The notes under the pieces: generated by a model
Database searches by the model: none
Told to the model about the DNA's origin: nothing
The model's input: only the letters and a program-made list of their open reading frames with translations
Part shown: in pieces, positions 42,014 through 53,360 of the stretch
How the letters are laid out: each line of letters starts with the position of its first letter
Position numbering within the stretch: position 1 is the first letter of the stretch
NCBI GenBank assembly: GCA_963756375.1
Contig: CAVWNJ010000005.1
Span: 1,640,440-1,704,439 of the forward strand
Direction: 5' to 3'
From: an uncultured Actinomycetota bacterium
GTDB lineage: Bacteria; Actinomycetota; Actinomycetes; Actinomycetales; Microbacteriaceae
Length of the DNA: 64,000 bases
Program-made: the position numbers and the translations under genes

Positions 42014-43154
42014 ATGGGCCCACACTCAGGAGCCCTCATGCCGCTCGCCTCACGCTCGTCCCGTCGTCCCTCCACCGCGCACCGCTCGATGTGGACCGGC
42101 ATTGCCGCATCACTGCTCGCAGTCGCCATGACCGCAGGCGGCGCAGCAGGCGCATTCGCAGCGACCAGCGGTAGCGTGTTGGACCAGTCGTTCGAGGAAG
42201 GCACAGACGAGGGGATCGGGGCCACCGACGGGCAGCGCGTCGCTCAACCCTTCACAGCTGGCCGCTCGGGTCTTCTCACCGACGTGGAACTCAACTTCGT
42301 GACCACGATCGATATGCACGGCGACGGATACATCGCTGTGCGGAACACAGACGATGCCGGCAGCCCGGTGGGACCGGCCCTCGCCTCTGTAACCTTTGCG
42401 CAGGACGAGTACTCGGGGTGGACCTCTTTCACCTTCCCGGAGCCCGCGCGTCTCACGGAAGGCACCGGATACGTGCTCGAGGCGAGCGCGGAAGCCGTCC
42501 TCCCGCCGGACTCGAGCGGCGACTCGCGGTATTACAACCAGTATGTGCTGGCCATGGGCGTCACCGACTCGGTCGAGGAGAGCCTCTTCGTGACCCGCGC
42601 AGATGGCACGTTCATCCGGGTGCGCCCTCACGAGCTGCTCTTCCGTACCCACATGCTCGCCGCAGTCGGCTCCCGCCGCACCGGCCGACGTGACCGTCGT
42701 CCCGGGTGATGGCACCGCGACCGTGACGTGGACGGCTCCCGCCAGCAACGGCGGAGCGATCACCTCCTACACGGCCACCGCATCCACCGGCGAGCACTGC
42801 GTCACCGAGACCACCTCCTGCACGATTGAGGGCCTCACCAACGGCACCGAGTACACCTTCACCGTCACCGCCAGCAACGCGTTCGGGATCTCGCCCGCGT
42901 CGGCGCAGAGCGCAGCCGTCGTTCCCGCACCGGAGGCCAGCGCCCCCGTCGACAGCGAGCCCACAGCCGAGGTCGTCGACAGCGAGCCCACCGCCGAGGT
43001 CATTGACACCGTGAGTGAGGTCGCCGCATCCGGCGCGCCCGAGCTCGCCAAGACGGGCGCCGACTCCGCAGGAACAGCCACCCTCGCGGCCCTGCTCCTC
43101 GGCGGAGGCGTCGCGATGCTCCTCGTCGCACGCCGCCGCAAGCAGCTCGCCTGA
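42014..43154 (+). pseudogene. secreted Fn3-domain surface protein with LAxTG (class E sortase) cell-wall sorting signal; frameshifted near 42650-42665 (paralog of 43202-44263)
   Basis: ORFs 42014..42709 and 42603..43154 join into one protein colinear with the downstream paralog. C-terminal ELAKTG followed by a hydrophobic stretch and RRRK. Confidence 0.6.
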
Positions 43155-43201: not shown

Positions 43202-44263
43202 ATGTCGCACCAAACCCTCACCATCAGCCGCCCGCTCGCGACCCGCCGACCCCTCTGGACCGGCGTCGCCGCATCCCTCCTCGCGGTCGCCATGACCGCA
43301 GGCGGCGCAGCAGGAGCGTTTGCCGCGACGAGCGGGAGTGAGGTGGACCAGGCGGTCGAGTCGCCCCTCGTGTATGACCACCTCTGGGTGCACCCGGATA
43401 ACGCGTTCGCTCAGACCTTCACGGCCGGTTCCACGGGACTTCTCACGGACCTGGAGGTGTCCATCAGCAACGCGGACCATATGGTCACGGACGGCGTTGT
43501 CGAGATCCAGCGGGTCGACGCGGAAGGCTACCCCACCGGAATGGCCATCGCGTCGACGACGTTCGCGCCCAACCCGCCGAACGGCTGGCTGAGCCTGAGT
43601 TTCGCCGCCCCTGCCTCCGTGATCAGCGGCACGAAGTATGCCTTCGTGGCGACTATCACTCCCAGCGAGGCGGCCCCCTACGAGCACAACTCGTATCTCC
43701 TGGCGAACACCTCGAACGCTTACGGCGGGGGCGACCTCTTCGAGAGCGTGGATGGCCAGCCGTACGGGTCGCTCGACTCCGACCTGCTGTTCCGCACCTA
43801 TGTGGCTCCCCGCTCCGCACCGGATGCCCCCGCCGACGTGACAGCGGTGCCCGGCGATGGCCTCGCTACCGTGTCGTGGACCGCTCCCGCGGACCACGAC
43901 TCGGCCATCACGTCGTACACCGCCATGGCGTCGACCGGGGAAACCTGCATCGTCGACACCACGACCTGCACGATCGATGGCCTGGAGAACGGCACCGCGT
44001 ACACGTTCGCGGTCTATGCCACCAATGCCTTCGGCGATTCGGAGCTGTCGCTGGCGAGCGCGTCCATCATCCCGCTGGCCGATGTGAGCGCCCCGGTCGA
44101 TGTCGTCGTCGCCGACCTCGACACCACGCCCGCGGCATCCGGCGCACCCGAACTCGCGAAGACCGGAGCCGACTCCGCCGGAACCGCAACGCTCGCAGCC
44201 TTGCTTCTCGGCGGAGGGCTCGCGATGCTCCTCGTCGCACGGCGCCGCAGGCTTCAGGCCTAG
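43202..44263 (+). CDS. secreted Fn3-domain surface protein with LAKTG sortase signal (intact paralog)
   Basis: 353 aa with a signal peptide, an Fn3-like segment (VSWTAPADHDSAITSYTA...YTFAVYATNAFG), LAKTG, a TM segment and RRRR. Confidence 0.75.
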   Translation: MSHQTLTISRPLATRRPLWTGVAASLLAVAMTAGGAAGAFAATSGSEVDQAVESPLVYDHLWVHPDNAFAQTFTAGSTGLLTDLEVSISNADHMVTDGVVEIQRVDAEGYPTGMAIASTTFAPNPPNGWLSLSFAAPASVISGTKYAFVATITPSEAAPYEHNSYLLANTSNAYGGGDLFESVDGQPYGSLDSDLLFRTYVAPRSAPDAPADVTAVPGDGLATVSWTAPADHDSAITSYTAMASTGETCIVDTTTCTIDGLENGTAYTFAVYATNAFGDSELSLASASIIPLADVSAPVDVVVADLDTTPAASGAPELAKTGADSAGTATLAALLLGGGLAMLLVARRRRLQA

Positions 44264-44294
44264 CTCGAGCTCGACCCGGGCCGGGTTCGTCGCG

Positions 44295-44660
44295 CTACGG
44301 CGTGACGATCTCGAGCCCGGTCGAGGCGGCCGCGTCGTTCAGGCCGCCGATGTTGGTGGTGTCGCCGAACCCGAGCGCGGTCATCTGAGAGATGGCGTTA
44401 CCGGCGCGGTTGCCCGACTTGCAGTACACGAGGTACGTGCCGTCGGTGGGCAACTGACTCACCTGGGCCTCGAAGTCGGCGGACTGCACGTCGATGTTGA
44501 GTGCATCGACCAAGTGACCCTGCGCGTACTCCCCCGGGGTGCGCACGTCGATGACCACGGTGTCGGGTCCGACGGCAACGGGCTCGGAGGGTGCTGAGCA
44601 CCCGGCCAGGGCAAGTGAGGCGCTAGCGGTGAGGGCAAGAGTGATGAGCAGCTTCTTCAT
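44295..44660 (-). CDS. rhodanese-domain lipoprotein (single-domain sulfurtransferase)
   Basis: 121 aa starting MKKLLITLALTASASLALAGCS (lipobox). Active-site CKSGNRAG loop. Confidence 0.75.
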   Translation of the reverse strand: MKKLLITLALTASASLALAGCSAPSEPVAVGPDTVVIDVRTPGEYAQGHLVDALNIDVQSADFEAQVSQLPTDGTYLVYCKSGNRAGNAISQMTALGFGDTTNIGGLNDAAASTGLEIVTP

Positions 44661-44682
44661 GAGTGACTTTCTTGTGAGGTGA

Positions 44683-45210
44683 TCAGGAACGAGTGTCGGT
44701 GTGGACGATCGGCTCGCGGGCGTCGTCACGGGGCTCGAGTGGCGACTGGTCGGCCGACACCCGGCACGAGTTCTCCCGAGTGACGCGGGCAAACAGCGCC
44801 CAGCCGAGCAGGAGGATGGATGCGGCGGCCAGGTACGGCTGCACCGGTTCGAAGTACTGCAGCGCACCGGTGGTGCCGAGCGCGAGCAGCACGAGTTTGT
44901 TGCAGACCGGGCATCCGACCGCGAAGAACGCGACCATGCCGCCGGCCAGACCCAGTCGGCCGTCGGCCCGCCGTGGCGCGGCACCCTGCGGGTAGGCGAC
45001 ATAGGTTGCGGTGACGAGGCCCGCGAGAATCGCGCTCACGACGAGCACGGGCCATGCCCATGCGGTCGGCGGAATCTCCCTCGAAAAGATGGGATTCTCG
45101 ATCAGGTCGGTGGGGATCGCGATGAACAGCACGGTCGCTGCCGCTGTTAAAAGGGCTGTCCACCATCGGCGCGCGGGCCAGAGCCGGAAGCCGTTGAGGA
45201 ACGCGCTCAT
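44683..45210 (-). CDS. membrane protein with intramembrane CPVC motif (MauE/MerT/VKOR-like thiol-redox or metal-handling membrane protein)
   Basis: 175 aa starting MSAFLNGFRLWP (ATG 45208-45210) with 4-5 TM and GCPVCNKLVLLALG. Confidence 0.55.
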   Translation of the reverse strand: MSAFLNGFRLWPARRWWTALLTAAATVLFIAIPTDLIENPIFSREIPPTAWAWPVLVVSAILAGLVTATYVAYPQGAAPRRADGRLGLAGGMVAFFAVGCPVCNKLVLLALGTTGALQYFEPVQPYLAAASILLLGWALFARVTRENSCRVSADQSPLEPRDDAREPIVHTDTRS

Positions 45211-45557
45211 GACGCGAGCTGCCCGGCGAGCGCGTCGAGCCCGCCCTCGAAATAGTCCGCCCACCCTGCACCGGTTCGGCCGGGCGCGCTCGACTGCGCG
45301 AGCCAGGCGTCGCGGATGCCCGTGATGATGAGTCGCTGCGAAGCGTCGTCGGGGTCTCCGGTGGCGGCCGACCGGGCGGATCGTCGGATCGCTCGCCTGC
45401 CTTCGGCAAGTGCCGCAACCGCACCCTCCCGGTATTTCACGGTGGAGCGTGAGCCGCGATCGCCCGCGGGGGCACACAGCGACTGCCCGCCGGTCGAATC
45501 GACCAGACGGTTCAGCGCATCATTCTCGCGGACGATGAGGGTGTCGAGAAATGGCAT
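45207..45557 (-). CDS. hypothetical protein (116 aa), translationally coupled (ATGA) to the CPVC membrane protein
   Basis: ORF in an operon context. Weak resemblance only (ALNRL) to CsoR-family N-termini, and it lacks the C-H-C metal ligands. Confidence 0.4.
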   Translation of the reverse strand: MPFLDTLIVRENDALNRLVDSTGGQSLCAPAGDRGSRSTVKYREGAVAALAEGRRAIRRSARSAATGDPDDASQRLIITGIRDAWLAQSSAPGRTGAGWADYFEGGLDALAGQLAS

Positions 45558-45575
45558 GAGACTGTCAGCGGCGAA

Positions 45576-45692
45576 TCAGTTGCAGGTGCAGTGCTGGTCG
45601 CGGGGAACGTCGGCCATCACGTCTTCGACGTGGGCTCCGCATCCGGCCCAGGTGATCTTGTTGCACGCGTCACAACGGATGGGACTGCACAT
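45576..45692 (-). CDS. 38-aa Cys/His-rich small protein MCSPIRCDACNKITWAGCGAHVEDVMADVPRDQHCTCN (candidate metallothionein-like or zinc-ribbon peptide)
   Basis: Strong RBS AAGGAG 5-6 nt upstream of the ATG. 6 Cys and 2 His in 38 residues. First gene of the rhodanese operon. Confidence 0.5.
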   Translation of the reverse strand: MCSPIRCDACNKITWAGCGAHVEDVMADVPRDQHCTCN

Positions 45693-45729
45693 TGCTACTC
45701 CTTCGGCAGGGGATGTGAACACTGTCGAG

Positions 45730-45745
45730 TATACCCCCTAGGGTA
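45730..45745. promoter_or_regulatory. CsoR/RicR-type palindromic operator ATACCC-CCTA-GGGTAT about 40 nt upstream of the small Cys-rich gene
   Basis: Perfect 6-bp arms. Resembles the B. subtilis copZA CsoR site ATACCCTACGGGGGTAT and the mycobacterial RicR motif TACCC-N5-GGGTA. Confidence 0.45.
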
Positions 45746-46992
45746 TTTTCCGCAACGCTAGAGGCAACGGGCCGCCTTGGGCAGCGAAACAGAGGAGCGC
45801 GACGGGTCGGCGGCGGGATCCAGAGACCGGGGCTAAGTGGGGACAGAGGTCGGCGACGGGGCACGGGTACGGAAGGCAACGGGCCGCCTCGGGCAGCGGA
45901 CCTGCGCCTTCTCCGTGGGGTACGGGCGCATACCCGATCTCGCCTTGCACGTTGTCGGCGAGGGCGAGGGAATGGTAGTTGATGGTCATGGCACTGAGCC
46001 CGGAGTCGAACGAGGTCGCAGTTTCGTCCCATGAGGCGGAGGTGCTTCCCGGCGGAACCGACCCGCTGTCGATCAGATCCGTGTAGTACTGCAGCGCTTC
46101 GACGCCTTCAGGTGTGTCGAAGGCGAGGGACAGGTCGTCGGCAACGAGGTGACCGTCTCCGCCATTGCTCGCGAGCAATGTCTTGAAATCATCTGTCGCC
46201 AGTCGCCGACACCTGCCATGACGGTGGTGCCGTAGAGATTGTTCTCGGGTTGGGTGAAGAACGCCGCGACCTCCGCGTAGTCGTCCCACGTTTCGGGAAC
46301 CGTGAGCTCACGTCCGTACTCTTTCAGGAACGTGGCTTTTTGGGTCTCGTCGTTGAACAGGTCGGCGCGGTACCCCATGATGGCAACGTTCGCCTGAATC
46401 GGCATTCCGTAGACGTCAAAACCAGCGGAGGTTATGGCGCTCACGTCTGCCGGTTCATCGGTACTGGAAAATTGCTTCAGCGGATCACCGGCGTCGTAGA
46501 CCGCAGTGTCGTACAGCACCTTAGGAACGAAGTCAGAAAGGTCCGGGTCGGATTTTGTGTTCAGCTCGGGATTATTCAGGTATCCGCTGAGTGGTTCCAG
46601 GCTACCGACAAGCGCCGGCGCCCACGGTGTGTCGACCACCACGATGTCGTAGTAATCGCTGGAAGAAGCAAACTCAGAGAACACTTTCTGCTGCAAGGCG
46701 TCATACGGCTGCGTATCGATTGCAAGCTTGATTCCGAACTCGCTTTCGAACTTGGGGACCTGGGCCTGCAGCGCCTGCGCATTAGCTTCGGCCGTCGTGT
46801 AGAGAATGCGCAGGGTGTCAGGCTTACCGGTGGACGGCGCGCTGTCGGCGGCGCAACCGGAAAGGGCGAGAACGCCTACGGTTGCAGCCGCGAATCCCGC
46901 GGTGATGAACAGAGGAGCGCGACCGGGTCGGCGGCGGGACACCGAGGGACCGGGCCCCCGGACCGGCGGTAGCCGCTCGAGCAGATTTCTCA
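45738..46992 (-). pseudogene. ABC transporter sugar-binding protein, frameshifted (near 46205) and apparently 3'-truncated
   Basis: N-terminal ORF 46073..46992 (lipoprotein signal, SBP family 1 motifs) continues in another frame within 45738..46289 (LATDDFKTLLASNGGDGHLV...). The conserved C-terminal about 100 aa is missing. No cognate permeases nearby. Confidence 0.6.
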
Positions 46993-47235
46993 TTGCTTGA
47001 CAGGCGTGCAGCGGGGGCGTGTCCGACGGAACGCGCGGCGGCCGCGTGGACTCGGGCGAGAACGCCGCCGCCAGGACTGGGCACACGCCTTTCGCGCTGG
47101 GTGCTCATCCGACGATCCGTTGTCATGAACACATCTGACAACATTCCCATGGCTTATGTCAATCTTTACGCAAAAGTTCTTCGAAACTCGCGGCGTTAAT
47201 CGCGGCGCCACCGCATGTTGTGTTTGACTGTGGAT

Positions 47236-48423
47236 ATGACCGACGTCCAGCAACGAGCGCCGCGGCACGGCTCAGGGCCGGGCGAGTTGTTGCAAGTTTT
47301 TTTGGACGGCAGTGCACATACAAAGGCCCAGTTAGCACTGATCACGGGCCTCTCGCGATCTACGGTCTCGTCCCGAATTGATCTGCTCGTCAGCAGGGGT
47401 CTGCTCACACCGGCGGGAGAAGCCGCATCGTCAGGCGGGAGGCCTCCCGCCCAAATCGAGTTCAACCGCAGAGGTCGAATCATCATTGCAGCGGACTTGG
47501 GAGTGACCCATGGCGTTGTCGCGCTCGCTGATCTCGGCGGTGAACTTCTGGCGATTCACAGGGAACGTATCCGTATTGCCGACGGTCCCGAAGTAGTACT
47601 CGACTGGCTAGTGGCGTGCGCGCAAAGACTCCTGGCCGAGGGCGAATACGCAGTAGCCTCCGTGGCAGGCATCGGTGTCGGGGTACCCGGGCCTGTGGAG
47701 CACCTGACGGGCCGCCCAACAAACCCGCCTTTGATGCCCGGCTGGGATGGGTTCAGCATTCCCGACTACCTGCGTCGGTCATTCGATCTGCCGGTACTGG
47801 TCGACAATGACGTCAACATACTCGCGCTGGGCGAGCGAGCCATGCTTTGGCCCGGCGTCGCCGACCTCGTCTATATAAAGGTTGCCACCGGGATCGGCGC
47901 AGGGATCGTCAGCGGCGGCGCCCTGCAACGTGGCGCTGAGGGCACCGCGGGCGACCTCGGCCATGTTCAAGTTCCCTACAGCAAGCATTCCCCTCGTGAC
48001 CCCGAAGACGAGCGTGATCTGGAGGCTGTGGCAAGTGGGACCGCCATCGCAAACTGGCTCACCGCGCGCGGAACGACTGCCCGTACCAGCCAAGACGTTG
48101 TTGATCTCGTGCGTGCCGGCAATGACGAGGCCATTCAAGCCACACGCCAGGCGGGGCGGGAGATCGGCGAAGTTCTAGCCACGCTGGTCAACATATTGAA
48201 CCCTTCGATCATTGTCATGGGCGGAAGCATCTCCCGCAGCGGTGAGCACCTGCTCGCCGGAATGAGGGAGATCGTGTACCGTCGGTCTACCCCACTGGCG
48301 ACCCAAAACCTGTCAATCGTCCAGTCGCAATCAGGAGAGACGGGCGGCGTAATGGGAGCCGCCATCATGGTCATCCAGGAAGTCCTATCGGTCGACGCAA
48401 TCGACGCGCTCTGCACGGAGTAG
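47236..48423 (+). CDS. ROK family transcriptional regulator (NagC/XylR-type)
   Basis: N-terminal HTH followed by the ROK sugar-kinase-like domain (IGVGVPGPV, DNDVNILALGE). Alternative start at 47215. Confidence 0.8.
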   Translation: MTDVQQRAPRHGSGPGELLQVFLDGSAHTKAQLALITGLSRSTVSSRIDLLVSRGLLTPAGEAASSGGRPPAQIEFNRRGRIIIAADLGVTHGVVALADLGGELLAIHRERIRIADGPEVVLDWLVACAQRLLAEGEYAVASVAGIGVGVPGPVEHLTGRPTNPPLMPGWDGFSIPDYLRRSFDLPVLVDNDVNILALGERAMLWPGVADLVYIKVATGIGAGIVSGGALQRGAEGTAGDLGHVQVPYSKHSPRDPEDERDLEAVASGTAIANWLTARGTTARTSQDVVDLVRAGNDEAIQATRQAGREIGEVLATLVNILNPSIIVMGGSISRSGEHLLAGMREIVYRRSTPLATQNLSIVQSQSGETGGVMGAAIMVIQEVLSVDAIDALCTE

Positions 48424-49050
48424 TCGACGCTGGCTCGCGACTCGATCAGGTCGACATCCGCTGCGGCCATCGACGGAAGTGAAATGCTCCGCCGTTGTCG
48501 AGAGCGCCTAAGAGTCTTGCGGTGCGTTCCTTGCGCCTTGGTGCTGACGATCGTGGCGCTGACGACGAGAGTCGGCGGCAGCGTCGTCATGCGCCAGTGG
48601 CAGGTGGAAGGCCCGCGACCTTAGGTCATCGGCGTTGGCACAGTCGTCGGAGGCACCGTCACCGTTCACCAGGGCAGCCTCGCAGGCCCTGGGATTGGCC
48701 AGGCAGCACTGACGGCAGCGGCCGCTCCCGCGAACGGCGCCGTGTTCGATCTGCGGCTGAGAAACGCGGCGTCGGGAACCAGAAGTCCTGGAACCGTCTG
48801 GATCGAGTCGACCCTCGGTGGCACAGCTGGCCCGTTCACCGTCGGGTAGCCCGCCCCGACCGACATTGGGCCCGTCGTTGCGCAAGCAGCGGCGGGCCCA
48901 GCGCGCGACCGGAGGTGATCTGGATCGAGCAAATAATTCGTGATGCGCCCGCGATTGTGGCCCCTCTTGCCGAGCGGGAGAGCGCCACAAGGATGATTGT
49001 GGGTTAGCACCCCACCAACGAAAAAACCCCCGGAAACCGAGGGTCAACAG

Positions 49051-49122
49051 CTGGGGTACCTGGACTCGAACCAAGAACAAAAGAATCAGAATCTTCCGTG
49101 TTGCCAATTACACCATACCCCA
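49051..49122 (-). tRNA. tRNA-Gln (anticodon CTG)
   Basis: Minus-strand sequence TGGGGTATGGTGTAATTGGCAACACGGAAGATTCTGATTCTTTTGTTCTTGGTTCGAGTCCAGGTACCCCAG. Acceptor TGGGGTA/TACCCCA, anticodon loop TT-CTG-AT, discriminator G. A stem-loop plus T-run terminator lies at about 49000-49045. Confidence 0.85.
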
Positions 49123-51621: not shown

Positions 51622-51744
51622 AGGCCCCCGATTCTACGGGAGCACGATGCGGATGCCCGGGCCCGGGCTTGCGGGCTGCGCGCGCCTGCGCGGCGCTCGG
51701 CACGCGGGCGCGCGCGCGCGGCGCTCGGCACGCGGCGGGCGCGC

Positions 51745-52130
51745 GGCATGCGCGCGTGTCCGATGCAGGCGCGCACGGCGGCGCGGGCATGCGCGGCACG
51801 GGCGCGCGGGGCGGGCGCGGCGGGCGGATTCACACCGAGACCGCGCATCCCGTCGTGCTCCCCGACGCGGTGCGCGCCTGTATCGGACTGGCGCGGGTGT
51901 TAACCATGCGCGCGTGTCCGATGCAGGCGCGCACGGCGGCCCGGGCGCGCGTGCGGCGGTCAGCCGTGCGTTCGGGCGGCGCGGGGCGGGGCGGGTCGGG
52001 TCGGGCGGATGTCACACCACGAGAGCCGCGCATCCCGCTCGTGCATCTCCCCGACGCGGTGTGCGCGCCTGTATCGGACTGGCGCGGGTGTTAGACCATG
52101 CGCGGGTGTCCGATACAGGCGCGCATGTGA
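51745..52130. repeat. second repeat family: two full and one partial copy of a roughly 100-bp GC-rich element ending in a 15-bp-arm hairpin (gcgcctgtatcggac ... gtccgatacaggcgc)
   Basis: Copies at about 51834-51938 and 52010-52126, plus a partial copy at 51747-51780, in the gltX upstream intergenic region. Confidence 0.8.
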
Positions 52131-52280
52131 AAGGCGGCACCGCGAGCCGCGCCGCCGCCCCGCACCCCGCGCCGAGGCACCCCCGCCCCGCACCACCGCC
52201 CGCACCCCGCGCCCGCGCCAAGGCTCGCCGCCGCGCCGCCGCACCCGCACCGAGCCACGCCCCACGCGCCCCGCCCCGCG

Positions 52281-53360
52281 TCACACCAGCAGCAGCGTCA
52301 CATACGCCATGGCGAGGATGGCGGCCCAGGCGAGCGCGCCGGCGAGGAACGCACGCCCGCCGGTGCGCACGAGCTTCTCGAGGCGCAGGCTCGCACCGAT
52401 GGCGAAGAGGGCTGCGGCGAGCAGGGCGGATTGCAGCACGTCCGCGACCGAGAGCAGCGCATCCGGCAGCGGCACGAACGAGCGCAGAAGCACGGCCACG
52501 AGGAATCCGACGATGAACAACGGCACGAGGGGCGGTGTCGCCCGACTGACCGGCCCGGCGAAGGGTCCGGCAACCGTGTTGCCCGCGGAGTCGACGCCAC
52601 GAGGTGCGTCGACCGGGGCGGATGCCGCGTCGCGCGCTCCCCGCCGACGCGTGCCCACCGACGCGAGCGCCACCATGGGCGCGAGCATGAGCACGCGGGT
52701 GAGCTTCACCACCACGGCGACGGCGAGCGCCGCCGTGCCCGCGGTGCTCGCGGTGGCCACCACCTGGCCCACGTCGTGCACACTCGCCCCCGCCCAATGA
52801 CCGAACTGGGCGGGATCGAGCGACAGCGCAGAGGCGAGCACCGGCAACACGACGATGGCGAGCGTGCCGTAGACGGTGACCATGGCGATCGGAACGGCGG
52901 AGTCGCGGTCATCGGAATCGCGGGCGGCCGCCATCGCCCCCACCGCAGACACCCCGCAGATGGAGAACCCGGCAGCGAGAAGCACCGGCTGATCGCCTTC
53001 GAGCTTCAGCCAGCGACCGATCAGCAGGGTCACCGCGAAACTCGCGACCACGAGCGCCACGATGCCGAGGATGGCGGGCACACCGAGGCCCGCGATGTCG
53101 GTGAGGCTGAGCTTGAGCCCGAGCACGACGATTCCGAGCCGCAGCAGGCGACGTGCGGCGACGGCAAGGCCGGGCTTGAGTGGTCCGTCGAGCCGGGGTC
53201 GAGCCGGCCGAACGCTGCCGACGATCACCCCGACCACGAGAGCCGCGGTGAGCCAGGGCACGGCAGGAAGCGCGAGATGGATGCCGTAACCGACGGCGGC
53301 GCCGAGGCCGGCGAGCATCAGGCCGGGAAGCCACGGCGGCGTCATCTGTCGGGTGGGCAC
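52281..53360 (-). CDS. YeiH/UPF0324 family putative sulfate exporter membrane protein
   Basis: 359 aa with 10 or more TM helices and YeiH-family composition. Alternative ATG at 53345. Confidence 0.7.
   Translation of the reverse strand: MPTRQMTPPWLPGLMLAGLGAAVGYGIHLALPAVPWLTAALVVGVIVGSVRPARPRLDGPLKPGLAVAARRLLRLGIVVLGLKLSLTDIAGLGVPAILGIVALVVASFAVTLLIGRWLKLEGDQPVLLAAGFSICGVSAVGAMAAARDSDDRDSAVPIAMVTVYGTLAIVVLPVLASALSLDPAQFGHWAGASVHDVGQVVATASTAGTAALAVAVVVKLTRVLMLAPMVALASVGTRRRGARDAASAPVDAPRGVDSAGNTVAGPFAGPVSRATPPLVPLFIVGFLVAVLLRSFVPLPDALLSVADVLQSALLAAALFAIGASLRLEKLVRTGGRAFLAGALAWAAILAMAYVTLLLV

What the first reader, a model, noticed from the sequence alone, without database searches (positions are those of the whole stretch)
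44295..45745. Operon of a 38-aa Cys/His-rich peptide, a CPVC membrane protein and a periplasmic rhodanese behind a CsoR/RicR-type operator
A tiny ORF with an excellent Shine-Dalgarno (AAGGAG) encodes MCSPIRCDACNKITWAGCGAHVEDVMADVPRDQHCTCN, with 6 Cys and 2 His. About 40 nt upstream is the palindrome ATACCC-CCTA-GGGTAT. This matches the operator type bound by the copper-sensing CsoR/RicR and persulfide-sensing CstR family: the B. subtilis copZA site, and the M. tuberculosis RicR regulon that controls the metallothionein MymT. Downstream are a translationally coupled 116-aa unknown protein, a membrane protein with an intramembrane CPVC motif and a lipoprotein rhodanese. This points to a copper- or reactive-sulfur-responsive module in which the peptide could be a metallothionein-like metal or persulfide sink. 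Alternatively it could be a zinc-ribbon micro-protein or a modified peptide. No cognate CsoR-family regulator is encoded locally. The operon abuts, and seems to have truncated, a sugar-binding protein gene, which is consistent with insertion.
Basis: partly seen in the sequence, partly recalled or inferred. Interest (0 to 1): 0.7.

Follow-up and report, generated by a model that had tools for sequence, protein, structure and literature searches.

The report
Persulfide-regulon operon with uncharacterised Cys-rich mini-protein
A four-gene operon behind a CsoR-family operator most likely responds to reactive sulfur rather than copper, and its 38-residue first gene belongs to a widespread, unnamed cysteine-rich mini-protein family that recurs in actinobacterial sulfide-detoxification gene clusters.

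Summary
On the minus strand, the exact palindrome ATACCCTAGGGGGTAT (45731-45746) sits 38 nt upstream of a 38-aa Cys6His2 ORF. A 116-aa protein, a 4-TM CPVC membrane protein and a lipoprotein rhodanese follow.

The peptide gene is real. dN/dS is about 0.14. There are 613 clusters at 50% identity, and homologues occur in at least 582 species genomes. Its signature is M-C-x4-C-x2-C-x-K-x-T-W-x-G-C-G-x-H…C-x-C. It has no Pfam, NCBIfam or PDB match, and every named member is called "hypothetical protein".

In 80 related loci the peptide gene lies beside CsoR-family regulators, persulfide dioxygenase-rhodanese, TauE, rhodaneses and thioredoxin. All 34 complete regulators are x-C-x-C, the CstR type; none has the Cu(I)-ligand histidine. 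No copper genes occur. Of 84 exact TACCC-N4-GGGTA sites, 75 precede these genes.

So the reactive-sulfur reading is supported and the copper/metallothionein reading is not.

The "insertion" idea is also wrong. A relative keeps an intact sugar operon at the same place, so the truncated binding-protein gene is a deletion scar.

Still open: the regulator in this genome was not found, and the biochemical roles of the peptide, the 116-aa protein and the CPVC protein are inferred only.

The parts
45731..45746 (.). 16-bp perfect palindrome ATACCC-N4-GGGTAT; CsoR/CstR-family (type 1) operator
   Evidence: The exact core occurs once in the window against 0.01 expected. It is conserved in relatives L001, L004, L005 and L003 upstream of the same gene. 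The same motif lies within 150 nt upstream of peptide genes in 40 of 79 loci.
45728..45733 (-). Putative -10 hexamer TATACT overlapping the promoter-proximal operator arm
   Evidence: Read from the sequence. TATA[CG]T is conserved at this position in L001, L003, L004 and L005. The consensus scanner did not call it because the -35 matches only 3 of 6. Inferred.
45750..45755 (-). Putative -35 TTGCGG, 16 nt upstream of the -10
   Evidence: Read from the sequence. TTGCG[GT] is conserved in L001 and L004 although the DNA further upstream differs. Inferred.
45698..45703 (-). Shine-Dalgarno AAGGAG, 5 nt before the ATG
45576..45692 (-). 38-aa Cys6His mini-protein gene, a member of an unnamed conserved family
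   Evidence: 613 clusters at 50% identity with E<=1e-3. At least 582 species loci. Invariant M1 C2 C7 C10 G17 C18 G19 H21 C35. Median dN/dS 0.14. AF2 pLDDT 90. No Pfam, NCBIfam or PDB match.
45207..45557 (-). 116-aa protein of a rare family, always directly after a short-form peptide gene; invariant STGGQSLC motif; predicted four-helix bundle
   Evidence: Only 8 clusters in 5.8 billion proteins. The same pairing is seen in L001-L005, L009 and L014-L017. AF2 pLDDT 69.6. No fold match.
44683..45212 (-). 175-aa four-TM membrane protein with invariant intramembrane CPVC; its ATG overlaps the stop of the 116-aa gene (ATGA)
   Evidence: Weak, sub-threshold MerT similarity over the CxxC helix: Pfam 17.9 bits against a 32.9 cut-off, NCBIfam E=2e-4. 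Orthologues in Cryobacterium lie divergent from a CsoR-family gene with the operator between them.
44295..44660 (-). 121-aa lipoprotein rhodanese (single domain, active-site CKSGNR)
   Evidence: PF00581 E=5e-12; the nearest named model is PspE, below its cut-off. The orthologue in L014 has its own operator.
45896..46930 (-). Remnant of a sugar ABC solute-binding-protein gene (frameshifted and 3'-truncated); not part of the operon
   Evidence: SBP_bac_1 hit on the N-terminal ORF, with the reading frame continuing in a second ORF. 99.7% identical to the first 1016 nt of the intact 472-aa gene of L004; the next roughly 5 kb of L004 are missing.
45762..45898 (.). Two copies of a 25-nt direct repeat (45762-45786 and 45874-45898) in the junction DNA between the operator and the binding-protein remnant
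   Evidence: L001 has one hybrid copy.

Best explanation
This is a repressor-controlled operon of a CstR-type regulon. CstR-type regulators are persulfide/sulfane-sulfur-sensing members of the CsoR family.

Regulation: a tetrameric x-C-x-C CsoR-family repressor, encoded elsewhere in the genome, would bind the ATACCC-N4-GGGTAT operator. The operator overlaps the -10 element. When the repressor's two cysteines are bridged by sulfane sulfur it would release the DNA and switch on four genes.

First gene: a 38-residue member of a widespread, so far unnamed Cys6His mini-protein family. I infer that it is a small folded, probably Zn-stabilised, thiol protein. C7/C10 on a beta-hairpin knuckle plus C18/H21 at a helix start would hold the metal. 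The remaining N-terminal C2 and C-terminal C35/C37 would accept or carry sulfane sulfur as per- or polysulfide and be recycled by thioredoxin.

Other genes: the 116-aa four-helix protein, with its invariant Cys, is its dedicated partner in this lineage. The MerT-like CPVC membrane protein and the extracytoplasmic lipoprotein rhodanese would extend the thiol/sulfur relay across the membrane.

Shown here:
- the operator;
- the reality and breadth of the family;
- its tight linkage to CstR-type regulators, persulfide dioxygenase, TauE, rhodaneses and thioredoxin.

Inferred:
- metal content;
- sulfur-acceptor chemistry;
- the partners;
- the trans-membrane relay.
For: Operator:
- The exact site is unique in the window, with 0.01 expected.
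- It is conserved in relatives although the upstream DNA differs.
- In 80 species loci there are 84 exact sites in 817 kb against 0 in shuffles. 40 of 79 loci have one within 150 nt upstream of a peptide gene.
- 75 of 84 sites lie within 250 nt upstream of peptide, PDO/thioredoxin, rhodanese, regulator or CPVC genes.

Context:
- About 33 of 80 loci carry a CsoR-family gene, about 30 a PDO(-rhodanese), about 30 a rhodanese, about 15 TauE and about 18 thioredoxin within 6 kb.
- In Cryobacterium fucosi (L014) the peptide, 116-aa, lipoprotein-rhodanese and CPVC genes sit in one cluster with thioredoxin, PDO-rhodanese, rhodanese, TauE and the regulator. That cluster carries five operators.

Regulator type:
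- All 34 complete neighbouring regulators have G, A, N or S at the Cu(I)-His position.
- The best solved relative is S. pneumoniae CstR, 7MQ1/7MQ3 (PMC8643695).

Precedent:
- The S. coelicolor CsoR-like sulfane-sulfur sensor binds ATACC-N6-GGTAT at the pdo-tauE and rhod promoters (PMC7533328).
- Actinomycete SSN cluster 3 is predicted to hold persulfide sensors (PMC8643695).

Peptide:
- Purifying selection.
- Invariant Cys/His pattern.
- Confident compact model: hairpin, CxxC knuckle and helix.
- A natural fusion to thioredoxin, and thioredoxin genes under the same operator.

Copper: no HMA/CopZ or P1B-ATPase genes in the 80 loci.
Against: - No CsoR-family gene lies in the 64-kb window. A profile search could not place one on this genome's contig. 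So the operator may have no regulator here.
- The operator sequence alone does not separate Cu(I)-sensing CsoR/RicR sites from CstR sites (PMC3944814, PMC7533328).
- Nothing shows metal content or persulfide chemistry of the peptide. There is no significant fold or profile match to any zinc finger.
- A leech homologue has a His/Cys/Gly-rich tail, and some clusters carry a NicO transporter. Both hint at metal handling.
- The models and roles of the 116-aa and CPVC proteins are weak.
Confidence: 0.6

Rival explanations
1. Copper-responsive CsoR/RicR-type regulon. The peptide is a metallothionein-like Cu(I) sink, and the CPVC protein and rhodanese handle copper.
For: - The operator equals the RicR motif TACCC-N4-GGGTA (PMC3944814).
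- The peptide is 16% Cys with CxxC and CxC motifs.
- The CPVC helix weakly resembles the metal transporter MerT.
- One eukaryotic homologue carries a His/Cys-rich tail.
Against: - 0 of 34 neighbouring regulators have the Cu(I) His.
- No CopZ/CopA-type genes in the 80 loci.
- The neighbours are PDO, TauE, rhodaneses and thioredoxin.
- No similarity to MymT or any metallothionein profile.
- The peptide is predicted to be a folded hairpin-helix domain, not a metal-thiolate cluster peptide.
Confidence: 0.07
2. The regulon assignment is right, but the peptide is not a sulfur carrier. It is a structural Zn micro-protein that acts as an adaptor or regulator. It might, for example, modulate thioredoxin, PDO or the repressor, or act as a Zn-thiolate redox switch that releases Zn under reactive-sulfur stress.
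For: - Treble-clef-like arrangement of ligands and a confident small fold.
- Fusion to, and adjacency with, thioredoxin recalls the Zn-finger N-domain of Trx2-type thioredoxins (own knowledge).
- Long-form paralogues carry a conserved GGFFxRLFGR tail, which suggests a docking or membrane segment.
Against: - Seven conserved ligands are more than one Zn site needs.
- The family is the gene most often directly behind the operator, which suggests a front-line rather than accessory role.
- There are no data either way on binding partners.
Confidence: 0.2
3. The palindrome is an orphan here. The operon was assembled from regulon parts, but this genome lacks the regulator, so expression is constitutive.
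For: - No regulator was found in 64 kb or among the top profile hits.
- The locus is a recombination and deletion hot spot.
- In L013 the adjacent regulator gene looks disrupted.
Against: - The operator and the -10/-35 hexamers are perfectly kept in three strains although the upstream DNA is replaced.
- CsoR-family genes are often unlinked from their targets (PMC3944814).
- The search for the regulator was limited by the tools, so its absence is not evidence.
Confidence: 0.08
4. The small ORF is a RiPP precursor or a Cys-rich leader peptide that senses cysteine supply, not a functional protein.
For: Short, Cys-rich, and the first ORF of a sulfur-related operon.
Against: - No modification enzymes nearby.
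- Conservation covers non-Cys residues along the whole length (K12, T14, W15, G17, G19, H21, P30), and the ORF always starts at M1-C2.
- dN/dS is 0.14.
- The family occurs as a stand-alone gene, in tandem paralogues, fused to thioredoxin, and in eukaryotes.
Confidence: 0.03

Closest known systems
CstR-regulated cst/cst-like operons (S. aureus cstR-cstAB-sqr, E. faecalis/S. mitis cstR-rhdA-coaP-rhdB) and the S. coelicolor ScCsoR circuit (SCO0618-0621: pdo-rhod, tauE, csoR, rhod)
   Same: - A CsoR-family operator of the ATACC-N6-GGTAT type sits at the promoter.
- The regulon encodes rhodanese-type sulfurtransferases.
- In relatives the same operator controls PDO-rhodanese, TauE and an x-C-x-C regulator (PMC7533328, PMC8643695).
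   Different: - No regulator, PDO or TauE lies at this locus.
- The operon adds three components not described for cst systems in the papers I could search: the Cys6His mini-protein, the 116-aa protein and a CxxC membrane protein.
- The rhodanese is an exported lipoprotein.
M. tuberculosis RicR regulon (mymT, lpqS, socAB, mmcO, Rv2963)
   Same: - Identical operator core TACCC-N4-GGGTA.
- Small ORFs sit directly behind it, and the regulator is encoded elsewhere (PMC3944814).
   Different: - RicR is a Cu(I) sensor with the His ligand; the regulators linked to this peptide family are not.
- The peptide is unrelated to MymT. SocA/B are reported to be restricted to the M. tuberculosis complex (PMC3944814).
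- The gene context here is sulfur, not copper.
Small cytoplasmic sulfur-carrier proteins working with Cys-containing membrane proteins (TusA/YeeD with YeeE/TsuA; CstA TusA-like domain) - own knowledge
   Same: A small Cys protein is encoded next to a membrane protein with conserved intramembrane Cys and next to rhodaneses, in sulfur-stress operons.
   Different: There is no sequence or predicted-fold relation to TusA/DsrE. This peptide has seven conserved ligands and is probably metal-bound.
MerT/MerP mercury relay and CcdA/DsbD-type trans-membrane thiol relays
   Same: A short membrane protein carries a Cys pair inside a helix and is paired with an extracytoplasmic Cys protein. There is weak profile similarity to MerT over that helix.
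   Different: Scores are far below the family thresholds. There is no MerP, MerA or MerR of the mercury type. The partner is a rhodanese.
Treble-clef / zinc-ribbon mini-domains (e.g. the N-terminal Zn finger of Trx2-type thioredoxins; CW fingers)
   Same: - A CxxC knuckle on a beta-hairpin plus ligands at a helix N-terminus.
- A conserved Trp.
- One natural fusion to thioredoxin.

Membership tests
CsoR-family type-1 operator (CsoR/RicR/CstR sites) | Inverted repeat TACCC-N4-GGGTA (ATACC-N6-GGTAT) | tested here: met
   Exact 16-bp palindrome at 45731-45746. Motif definitions from PMC3944814 and PMC7533328.
CsoR-family type-1 operator (CsoR/RicR/CstR sites) | Sits in or over the core promoter of the controlled gene | tested here: inconclusive
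   The conserved TATACT overlaps the proximal arm and TTGCGG lies 16 nt upstream. The consensus scanner did not call a promoter, and no transcription start is mapped.
CsoR-family type-1 operator (CsoR/RicR/CstR sites) | A cognate CsoR-family repressor is encoded in the genome and binds the site | tested here: inconclusive
   None in the window. Not identified among the 120 listed of more than 8000 profile hits. The full genome is not available to the tools, and binding is not testable.
CstR (persulfide-sensing) regulon | Regulator with an x-C-x-C motif, lacking the Cu(I) His | tested here: met
   Met in relatives only: 34 of 34 regulators next to peptide genes have G, A, N or S at the Y position. 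The closest solved structure is SpCstR.
CstR (persulfide-sensing) regulon | Controlled genes encode sulfide/persulfide-handling proteins (rhodanese, PDO, TauE, etc.) | tested here: met
   A rhodanese lies in the operon. PDO-rhodanese, TauE, rhodaneses, a DsrE-like protein and thioredoxin lie under the same operator in relatives.
CstR (persulfide-sensing) regulon | Derepression by sulfide or persulfide, not by Cu | not testable with these tools
   Needs expression or EMSA experiments.
Cu(I)-sensing CsoR/RicR regulon | x-C-H-C regulator and copper efflux, chaperone or metallothionein genes | tested here: not met
   0 of 34 regulators have His. No GM[TSH]CxxC or P1B-ATPase ORFs in the 80 loci.
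Metallothionein (MymT-like) | Sequence relation to a metallothionein family; a metal-thiolate cluster peptide without regular secondary structure | tested here: not met
   No Pfam or NCBIfam hit for the peptide or for 31 family members. The confident model has two strands and a helix. Metal stoichiometry is not testable.
Zinc ribbon / treble-clef finger | CxxC knuckle on a hairpin plus two further ligands; match to a known finger family | tested here: inconclusive
   The ligand geometry is compatible. There is no significant profile or fold match.
Rhodanese sulfurtransferase | Rhodanese domain with an active-site Cys in a six-residue loop | tested here: met
   PF00581 at 46.6 bits against a 22.2 cut-off. 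The loop CKSGNR is read from the sequence.
MerT mercuric transport protein | Score above the family threshold; mer operon context | tested here: not met
   17.9 bits against 32.9 (Pfam) and 21.3 against 150 (NCBIfam). No mer genes are adjacent.
RiPP precursor | Leader/core architecture and adjacent modification enzymes | tested here: not met
   Conservation is full-length from M1. The neighbours are not modification enzymes.

The most novel reading that the evidence does not exclude
The Cys6His mini-protein is a new class of dedicated sulfane-sulfur acceptor or buffer, or a Zn-thiolate sensor of reactive sulfur. It would be recycled by thioredoxin and would be a core, overlooked component of persulfide homeostasis in Actinomycetota, with relatives in other bacteria and in eukaryotes. 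In this operon it would feed a previously undescribed trans-membrane thiol/sulfur relay made of a MerT-like CxxC membrane protein and an exported rhodanese.
Probability: 0.3. Interest if true: 0.78.

Novelty: new variant of a known kind. Interest (0 to 1): 0.62.

Why it matters
Persulfide-sensing CstR regulons are an active topic in H2S/RSS signalling, antibiotic tolerance and secondary-metabolite control. The actinomycete branch of CstR regulators (about 3,000 sequences, including M. tuberculosis Rv1766) is described as largely uncharacterised (PMC8643695).

This finding points to the gene that most often sits directly behind the operator in that branch. It is an unnamed 38-60-residue Cys6His protein found in hundreds of species, and it is often miscalled: database ORFs are over-extended upstream and translate the operator itself.

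The protein is small, easy to make and has a confident model. Its metal content, its persulfide chemistry and its interplay with thioredoxin can therefore be tested directly. The CPVC membrane protein plus exported rhodanese suggests that part of the response acts outside the cytoplasm.

Tried and rejected
- Word-indexed homologue search with the 48-aa extended ORF found only two near-identical proteins. The exhaustive HMMER search was needed.
- Pfam and NCBIfam scans of the peptide and of 31 family members gave only scattered sub-threshold hits: RNA_pol_N, HMA and assorted zinc fingers.
- The profile against PDB sequences gave nothing significant.
- The 116-aa protein has a moderate-confidence four-helix model with no meaningful fold hits. 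A jackhmmer hint of similarity to the C-terminal part of the MerR-family protein in the window was not confirmed by hhalign: probability 1.3%.
- The CPVC protein profile against PDB found nothing.
- SocA/SocB of the RicR regulon were considered as relatives. I rejected this because they are reported to be restricted to the M. tuberculosis complex.
- I tried to locate the host regulator through the 'longest contig' column of a regulator-profile search. This failed because the family is too large; only 120 of more than 8000 hits are listed.
Both were redone.
- Literature searches for the peptide by accession and by topic found no description.
Full report
**What is there**

The features lie on the minus strand. 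Reading 5' to 3':
- TTGCGG (45755-45750), then 16 nt.
- TATACT (45733-45728).
- The perfect palindrome ATACCCTAGGGGGTAT (45746-45731). It fills the spacer, and its proximal arm overlaps the -10-like hexamer.
- AAGGAG (45703-45698).
- An ATG at 45692 opening a 38-codon ORF, MCSPIRCDACNKITWAGCGAHVEDVMADVPRDQHCTCN.
- After 18 nt, a 116-codon ORF (45557-45207).
- A 175-codon ORF whose ATG overlaps the previous stop as ATGA (45212-44683).
- After 22 nt, a 121-codon ORF (44660-44295).

The last protein is a single-domain rhodanese (PF00581, E=5e-12) with an LAGC lipobox and the active-site loop CKSGNR. The 175-aa protein has four hydrophobic segments with CPVC in the third. It gives only sub-threshold MerT hits. 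The peptide and the 116-aa protein match no Pfam or NCBIfam model.

The core TACCC-N4-GGGTA occurs once in the 64 kb, with 0.01 expected by chance. No CsoR homologue is encoded in the window. One small correction: the overlapping, clearly coupled pair is the 116-aa and CPVC genes, not the peptide and 116-aa genes.

**The locus in close relatives**

A metagenome-assembled contig (L001, 97-99% identical) carries the same four genes, operator and downstream fn3 genes. It lacks window 45834-49017, so the operon directly follows tRNA-Gln.

Another relative (L004) has an intact ROK / solute-binding protein / two permeases / dehydrogenase / AP-endonuclease sugar operon in front of the peptide operon. 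The window matches only the first 1016 nt of that binding-protein gene, at 99.7% identity and with a one-base frameshift. It then jumps to the operator region, missing about 5 kb.

So the truncated sugar-binding gene is a deletion scar in a variable, mosaic region next to a tRNA gene. It is not evidence that the peptide operon was inserted. Through all three versions of the upstream DNA, the operator and both promoter-like hexamers are kept.

**The peptide is a real gene of a large unnamed family**

An exhaustive HMMER search of 1.84 billion cluster representatives found 613 clusters with E<=1e-3. These proteins are mostly 37-100 residues long.

In an alignment of 120 members, M1, C2, C7, C10, G17, C18, G19, H21 and C35 are invariant. 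K12, T14, W15 and C37 are nearly so. A minority end in C-x-G-H instead of C-x-C.

A single degenerate pattern found at least 582 species-level genome loci. Most are Actinomycetota: Arthrobacter, Cryobacterium, Frigoribacterium, Microbacterium, Mycobacterium, Rhodococcus, Corynebacterium, Nocardioides and others. A few are Myxococcota and Acidobacteriota.

There are also eukaryotic members, from a leech and a foraminifer, and a fusion to a thioredoxin domain. Every named member is "hypothetical" or "uncharacterized".

Among 14 short-form orthologues the median dN/dS is 0.14.

Two forms exist. One is a short 38-43-residue form like this one. The other is a 52-62-residue form with a conserved GGFFxRLFGR tail. 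They are often arranged in tandem, long then short.

**Which regulon?**

In the 80 best loci I looked for neighbours by tblastn and blastp, using proteins from two informative contigs (L002, L003). Within 6 kb:
- about 33 loci encode a CsoR-family protein;
- about 30 a persulfide dioxygenase, usually fused to rhodanese;
- about 30 a rhodanese;
- about 15 a TauE sulfite exporter;
- about 18 a thioredoxin.

None encodes a CopZ-like or P1B-ATPase-like protein.

Exact TACCC-N4-GGGTA sites number 84 in 817 kb, against none in shuffles. 40 of 79 loci have one within 150 nt upstream of a peptide gene. 75 of the 84 lie within 250 nt upstream of a peptide gene (45 sites), a divergent PDO/thioredoxin or rhodanese/thioredoxin pair, a regulator, a rhodanese or a CPVC gene.

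All 34 complete regulators have Cys at X and Z and G, A, N or S at Y, where Cu(I)-sensing CsoR/RicR have His. The closest solved structure is S. pneumoniae CstR.

This matches three points in the literature:
- CstR lacks the allosteric His and senses persulfides through its Cys pair.
- A large actinomycete cluster of x-C-x-C proteins is predicted to hold persulfide sensors (PMC8643695).
- The S. coelicolor member senses sulfane sulfur and binds ATACC-N6-GGTAT at the pdo-tauE and rhod promoters (PMC7533328).

The RicR motif is the same TACCC-N4-GGGTA (PMC3944814). The operator alone cannot decide between copper and sulfur. The regulators and the neighbours do.

**The other three genes belong to the same regulon**

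The 116-aa family is rare, with 8 clusters. It is always found immediately after a short-form peptide gene. It has an invariant STGGQSLC motif and a moderate-confidence four-helix model.

In Cryobacterium fucosi (L014) one 6-kb stretch holds the following, where "op" marks an operator:
- op → peptide → 116-aa gene;
- op → lipoprotein rhodanese;
- thioredoxin ← op, op → PDO-rhodanese → rhodanese → TauE;
- regulator ← op → CPVC protein and a paralogue.

In C. serini (L013) the order is regulator ← op → CPVC, paralogue, lipoprotein rhodanese, then op → peptide.

The window's operon is thus a compact fusion of four units of this regulon under a single operator.

**How it most likely works**

The following rests on comparative evidence. 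A CstR-type repressor occludes the -10 region. Sulfane sulfur bridges its cysteines and releases it. The four genes are then made together.

The following is inferred:
- The mini-protein is held together by a metal, most simply Zn, at C7, C10, C18 and H21.
- C2 becomes the N-terminal residue after Met removal. It and C35/C37 remain as a reactive thiol cluster that takes up sulfane sulfur as per- or polysulfide.
- Thioredoxin is co-regulated, often adjacent and once fused. It would regenerate the thiol cluster.
- The 116-aa protein is a lineage-specific partner.
- The CPVC membrane protein, with the exported rhodanese, passes sulfur or reducing equivalents across the membrane. Analogies are MerT/MerP, CcdA, and YeeE/YeeD (own knowledge).

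I put about 0.85 on the regulon assignment and about 0.35 on the specific sulfur-acceptor role of the peptide.

**Rivals**

- A copper/metallothionein reading fails the regulator and context tests.
- A purely structural or regulatory Zn micro-protein cannot be excluded.
- An orphan operator is possible, because I could not find the regulator of this genome.
- A RiPP or leader-peptide reading is contradicted by the full-length conservation, the fusions and the lack of modification enzymes.

**Novelty**

Cst-like regulons and their operator are known, so the regulatory logic is a new member of a known kind. Two things are not described in the Pfam, NCBIfam or PDB libraries or in the papers I could search:
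- the Cys6His mini-protein family, which is the most frequent operator-proximal gene of the actinomycete branch;
- its association with the 116-aa protein, a CxxC membrane protein and an exported rhodanese.

I therefore rate the finding as a new variant of a known kind, with moderately high interest.

Noticed in passing
window 51690-52282: A 593-bp intergenic segment that is absent from the 99%-identical relative L001. It holds about five copies, direct and inverted, of a GC-rich 25-37-nt unit (TGCGCGCCTGTATCGGACTGGCGCG). It looks like a REP- or MITE-type repeat cluster.
   Followed up: partly
window 45834-49122: The segment between tRNA-Gln (49050-49122, minus strand) and the peptide operon varies among three close strains. 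It is absent in L001, 5 kb longer with an intact sugar operon in L004, and partly deleted here. The ROK/binding-protein part is 99.7% identical to L004 while the adjacent peptide operon is only 90.6% identical. This points to recombination at this spot.
   Followed up: yes
window 45762-45786 and 45874-45898: A 25-nt direct repeat, AGGCAACGGGCCGCCT[T/C]GGGCAGCG, with copies 112 nt apart in the junction DNA. L001 has one hybrid copy. It may be the substrate or the product of the rearrangement.
   Followed up: partly
database proteins P0026, P0040, P0049, P0080, P0092, P0096, P0127 etc.: Many public ORF calls for the peptide family are over-extended upstream. They translate the operator itself as YPxGY, YTPxG or TPWGI. 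Gene callers are therefore mis-starting these genes.
   Followed up: partly
P0076 (Helobdella robusta T1FWC7), P0039 (foraminifer Ammonia sp.), P0097: The domain also occurs in eukaryotes. One member has a His/Cys/Gly-rich tail. One 172-aa protein, from an ENA contig of unknown organism, fuses the domain to a thioredoxin domain.
   Followed up: partly
L003 1316-1480, L016, L017, L028-L030, L032, L038, L039, L051, L053, L058, L071: Tandem arrangement of a long-form paralogue (C-terminal GGFFxRLFGR tail, sometimes CxGH instead of CxC) followed by a short-form gene. The window has only the short form.
   Followed up: partly
L007, L010, L013, L014, L020: A paralogous membrane-protein family related to the CPVC protein. 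It lacks CPVC and instead carries conserved CD.RWP and C-terminal ECRPLFP motifs. It is often encoded right after the CPVC gene.
   Followed up: no
L013 4086-4467: The CsoR-family gene next to the CPVC gene of Cryobacterium serini appears broken into several frames. It may be a pseudogene.
   Followed up: no
window 42603-43154 and 43202-44263 (+): Two paralogous fibronectin-III/DUF4082 proteins with an LAKTG sortase-like motif and a C-terminal membrane anchor. They converge on the operon. A GC-rich palindrome at 44257-44282 lies between the convergent genes.
   Followed up: no
L002 3067-4131; L015-L017: A NicO-family (Ni/Co transporter-like) gene sits inside the PDO-rhodanese-TauE operon of some Frigoribacterium-like clusters. 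This is an unexpected metal-transporter relative in a sulfur regulon.
   Followed up: no
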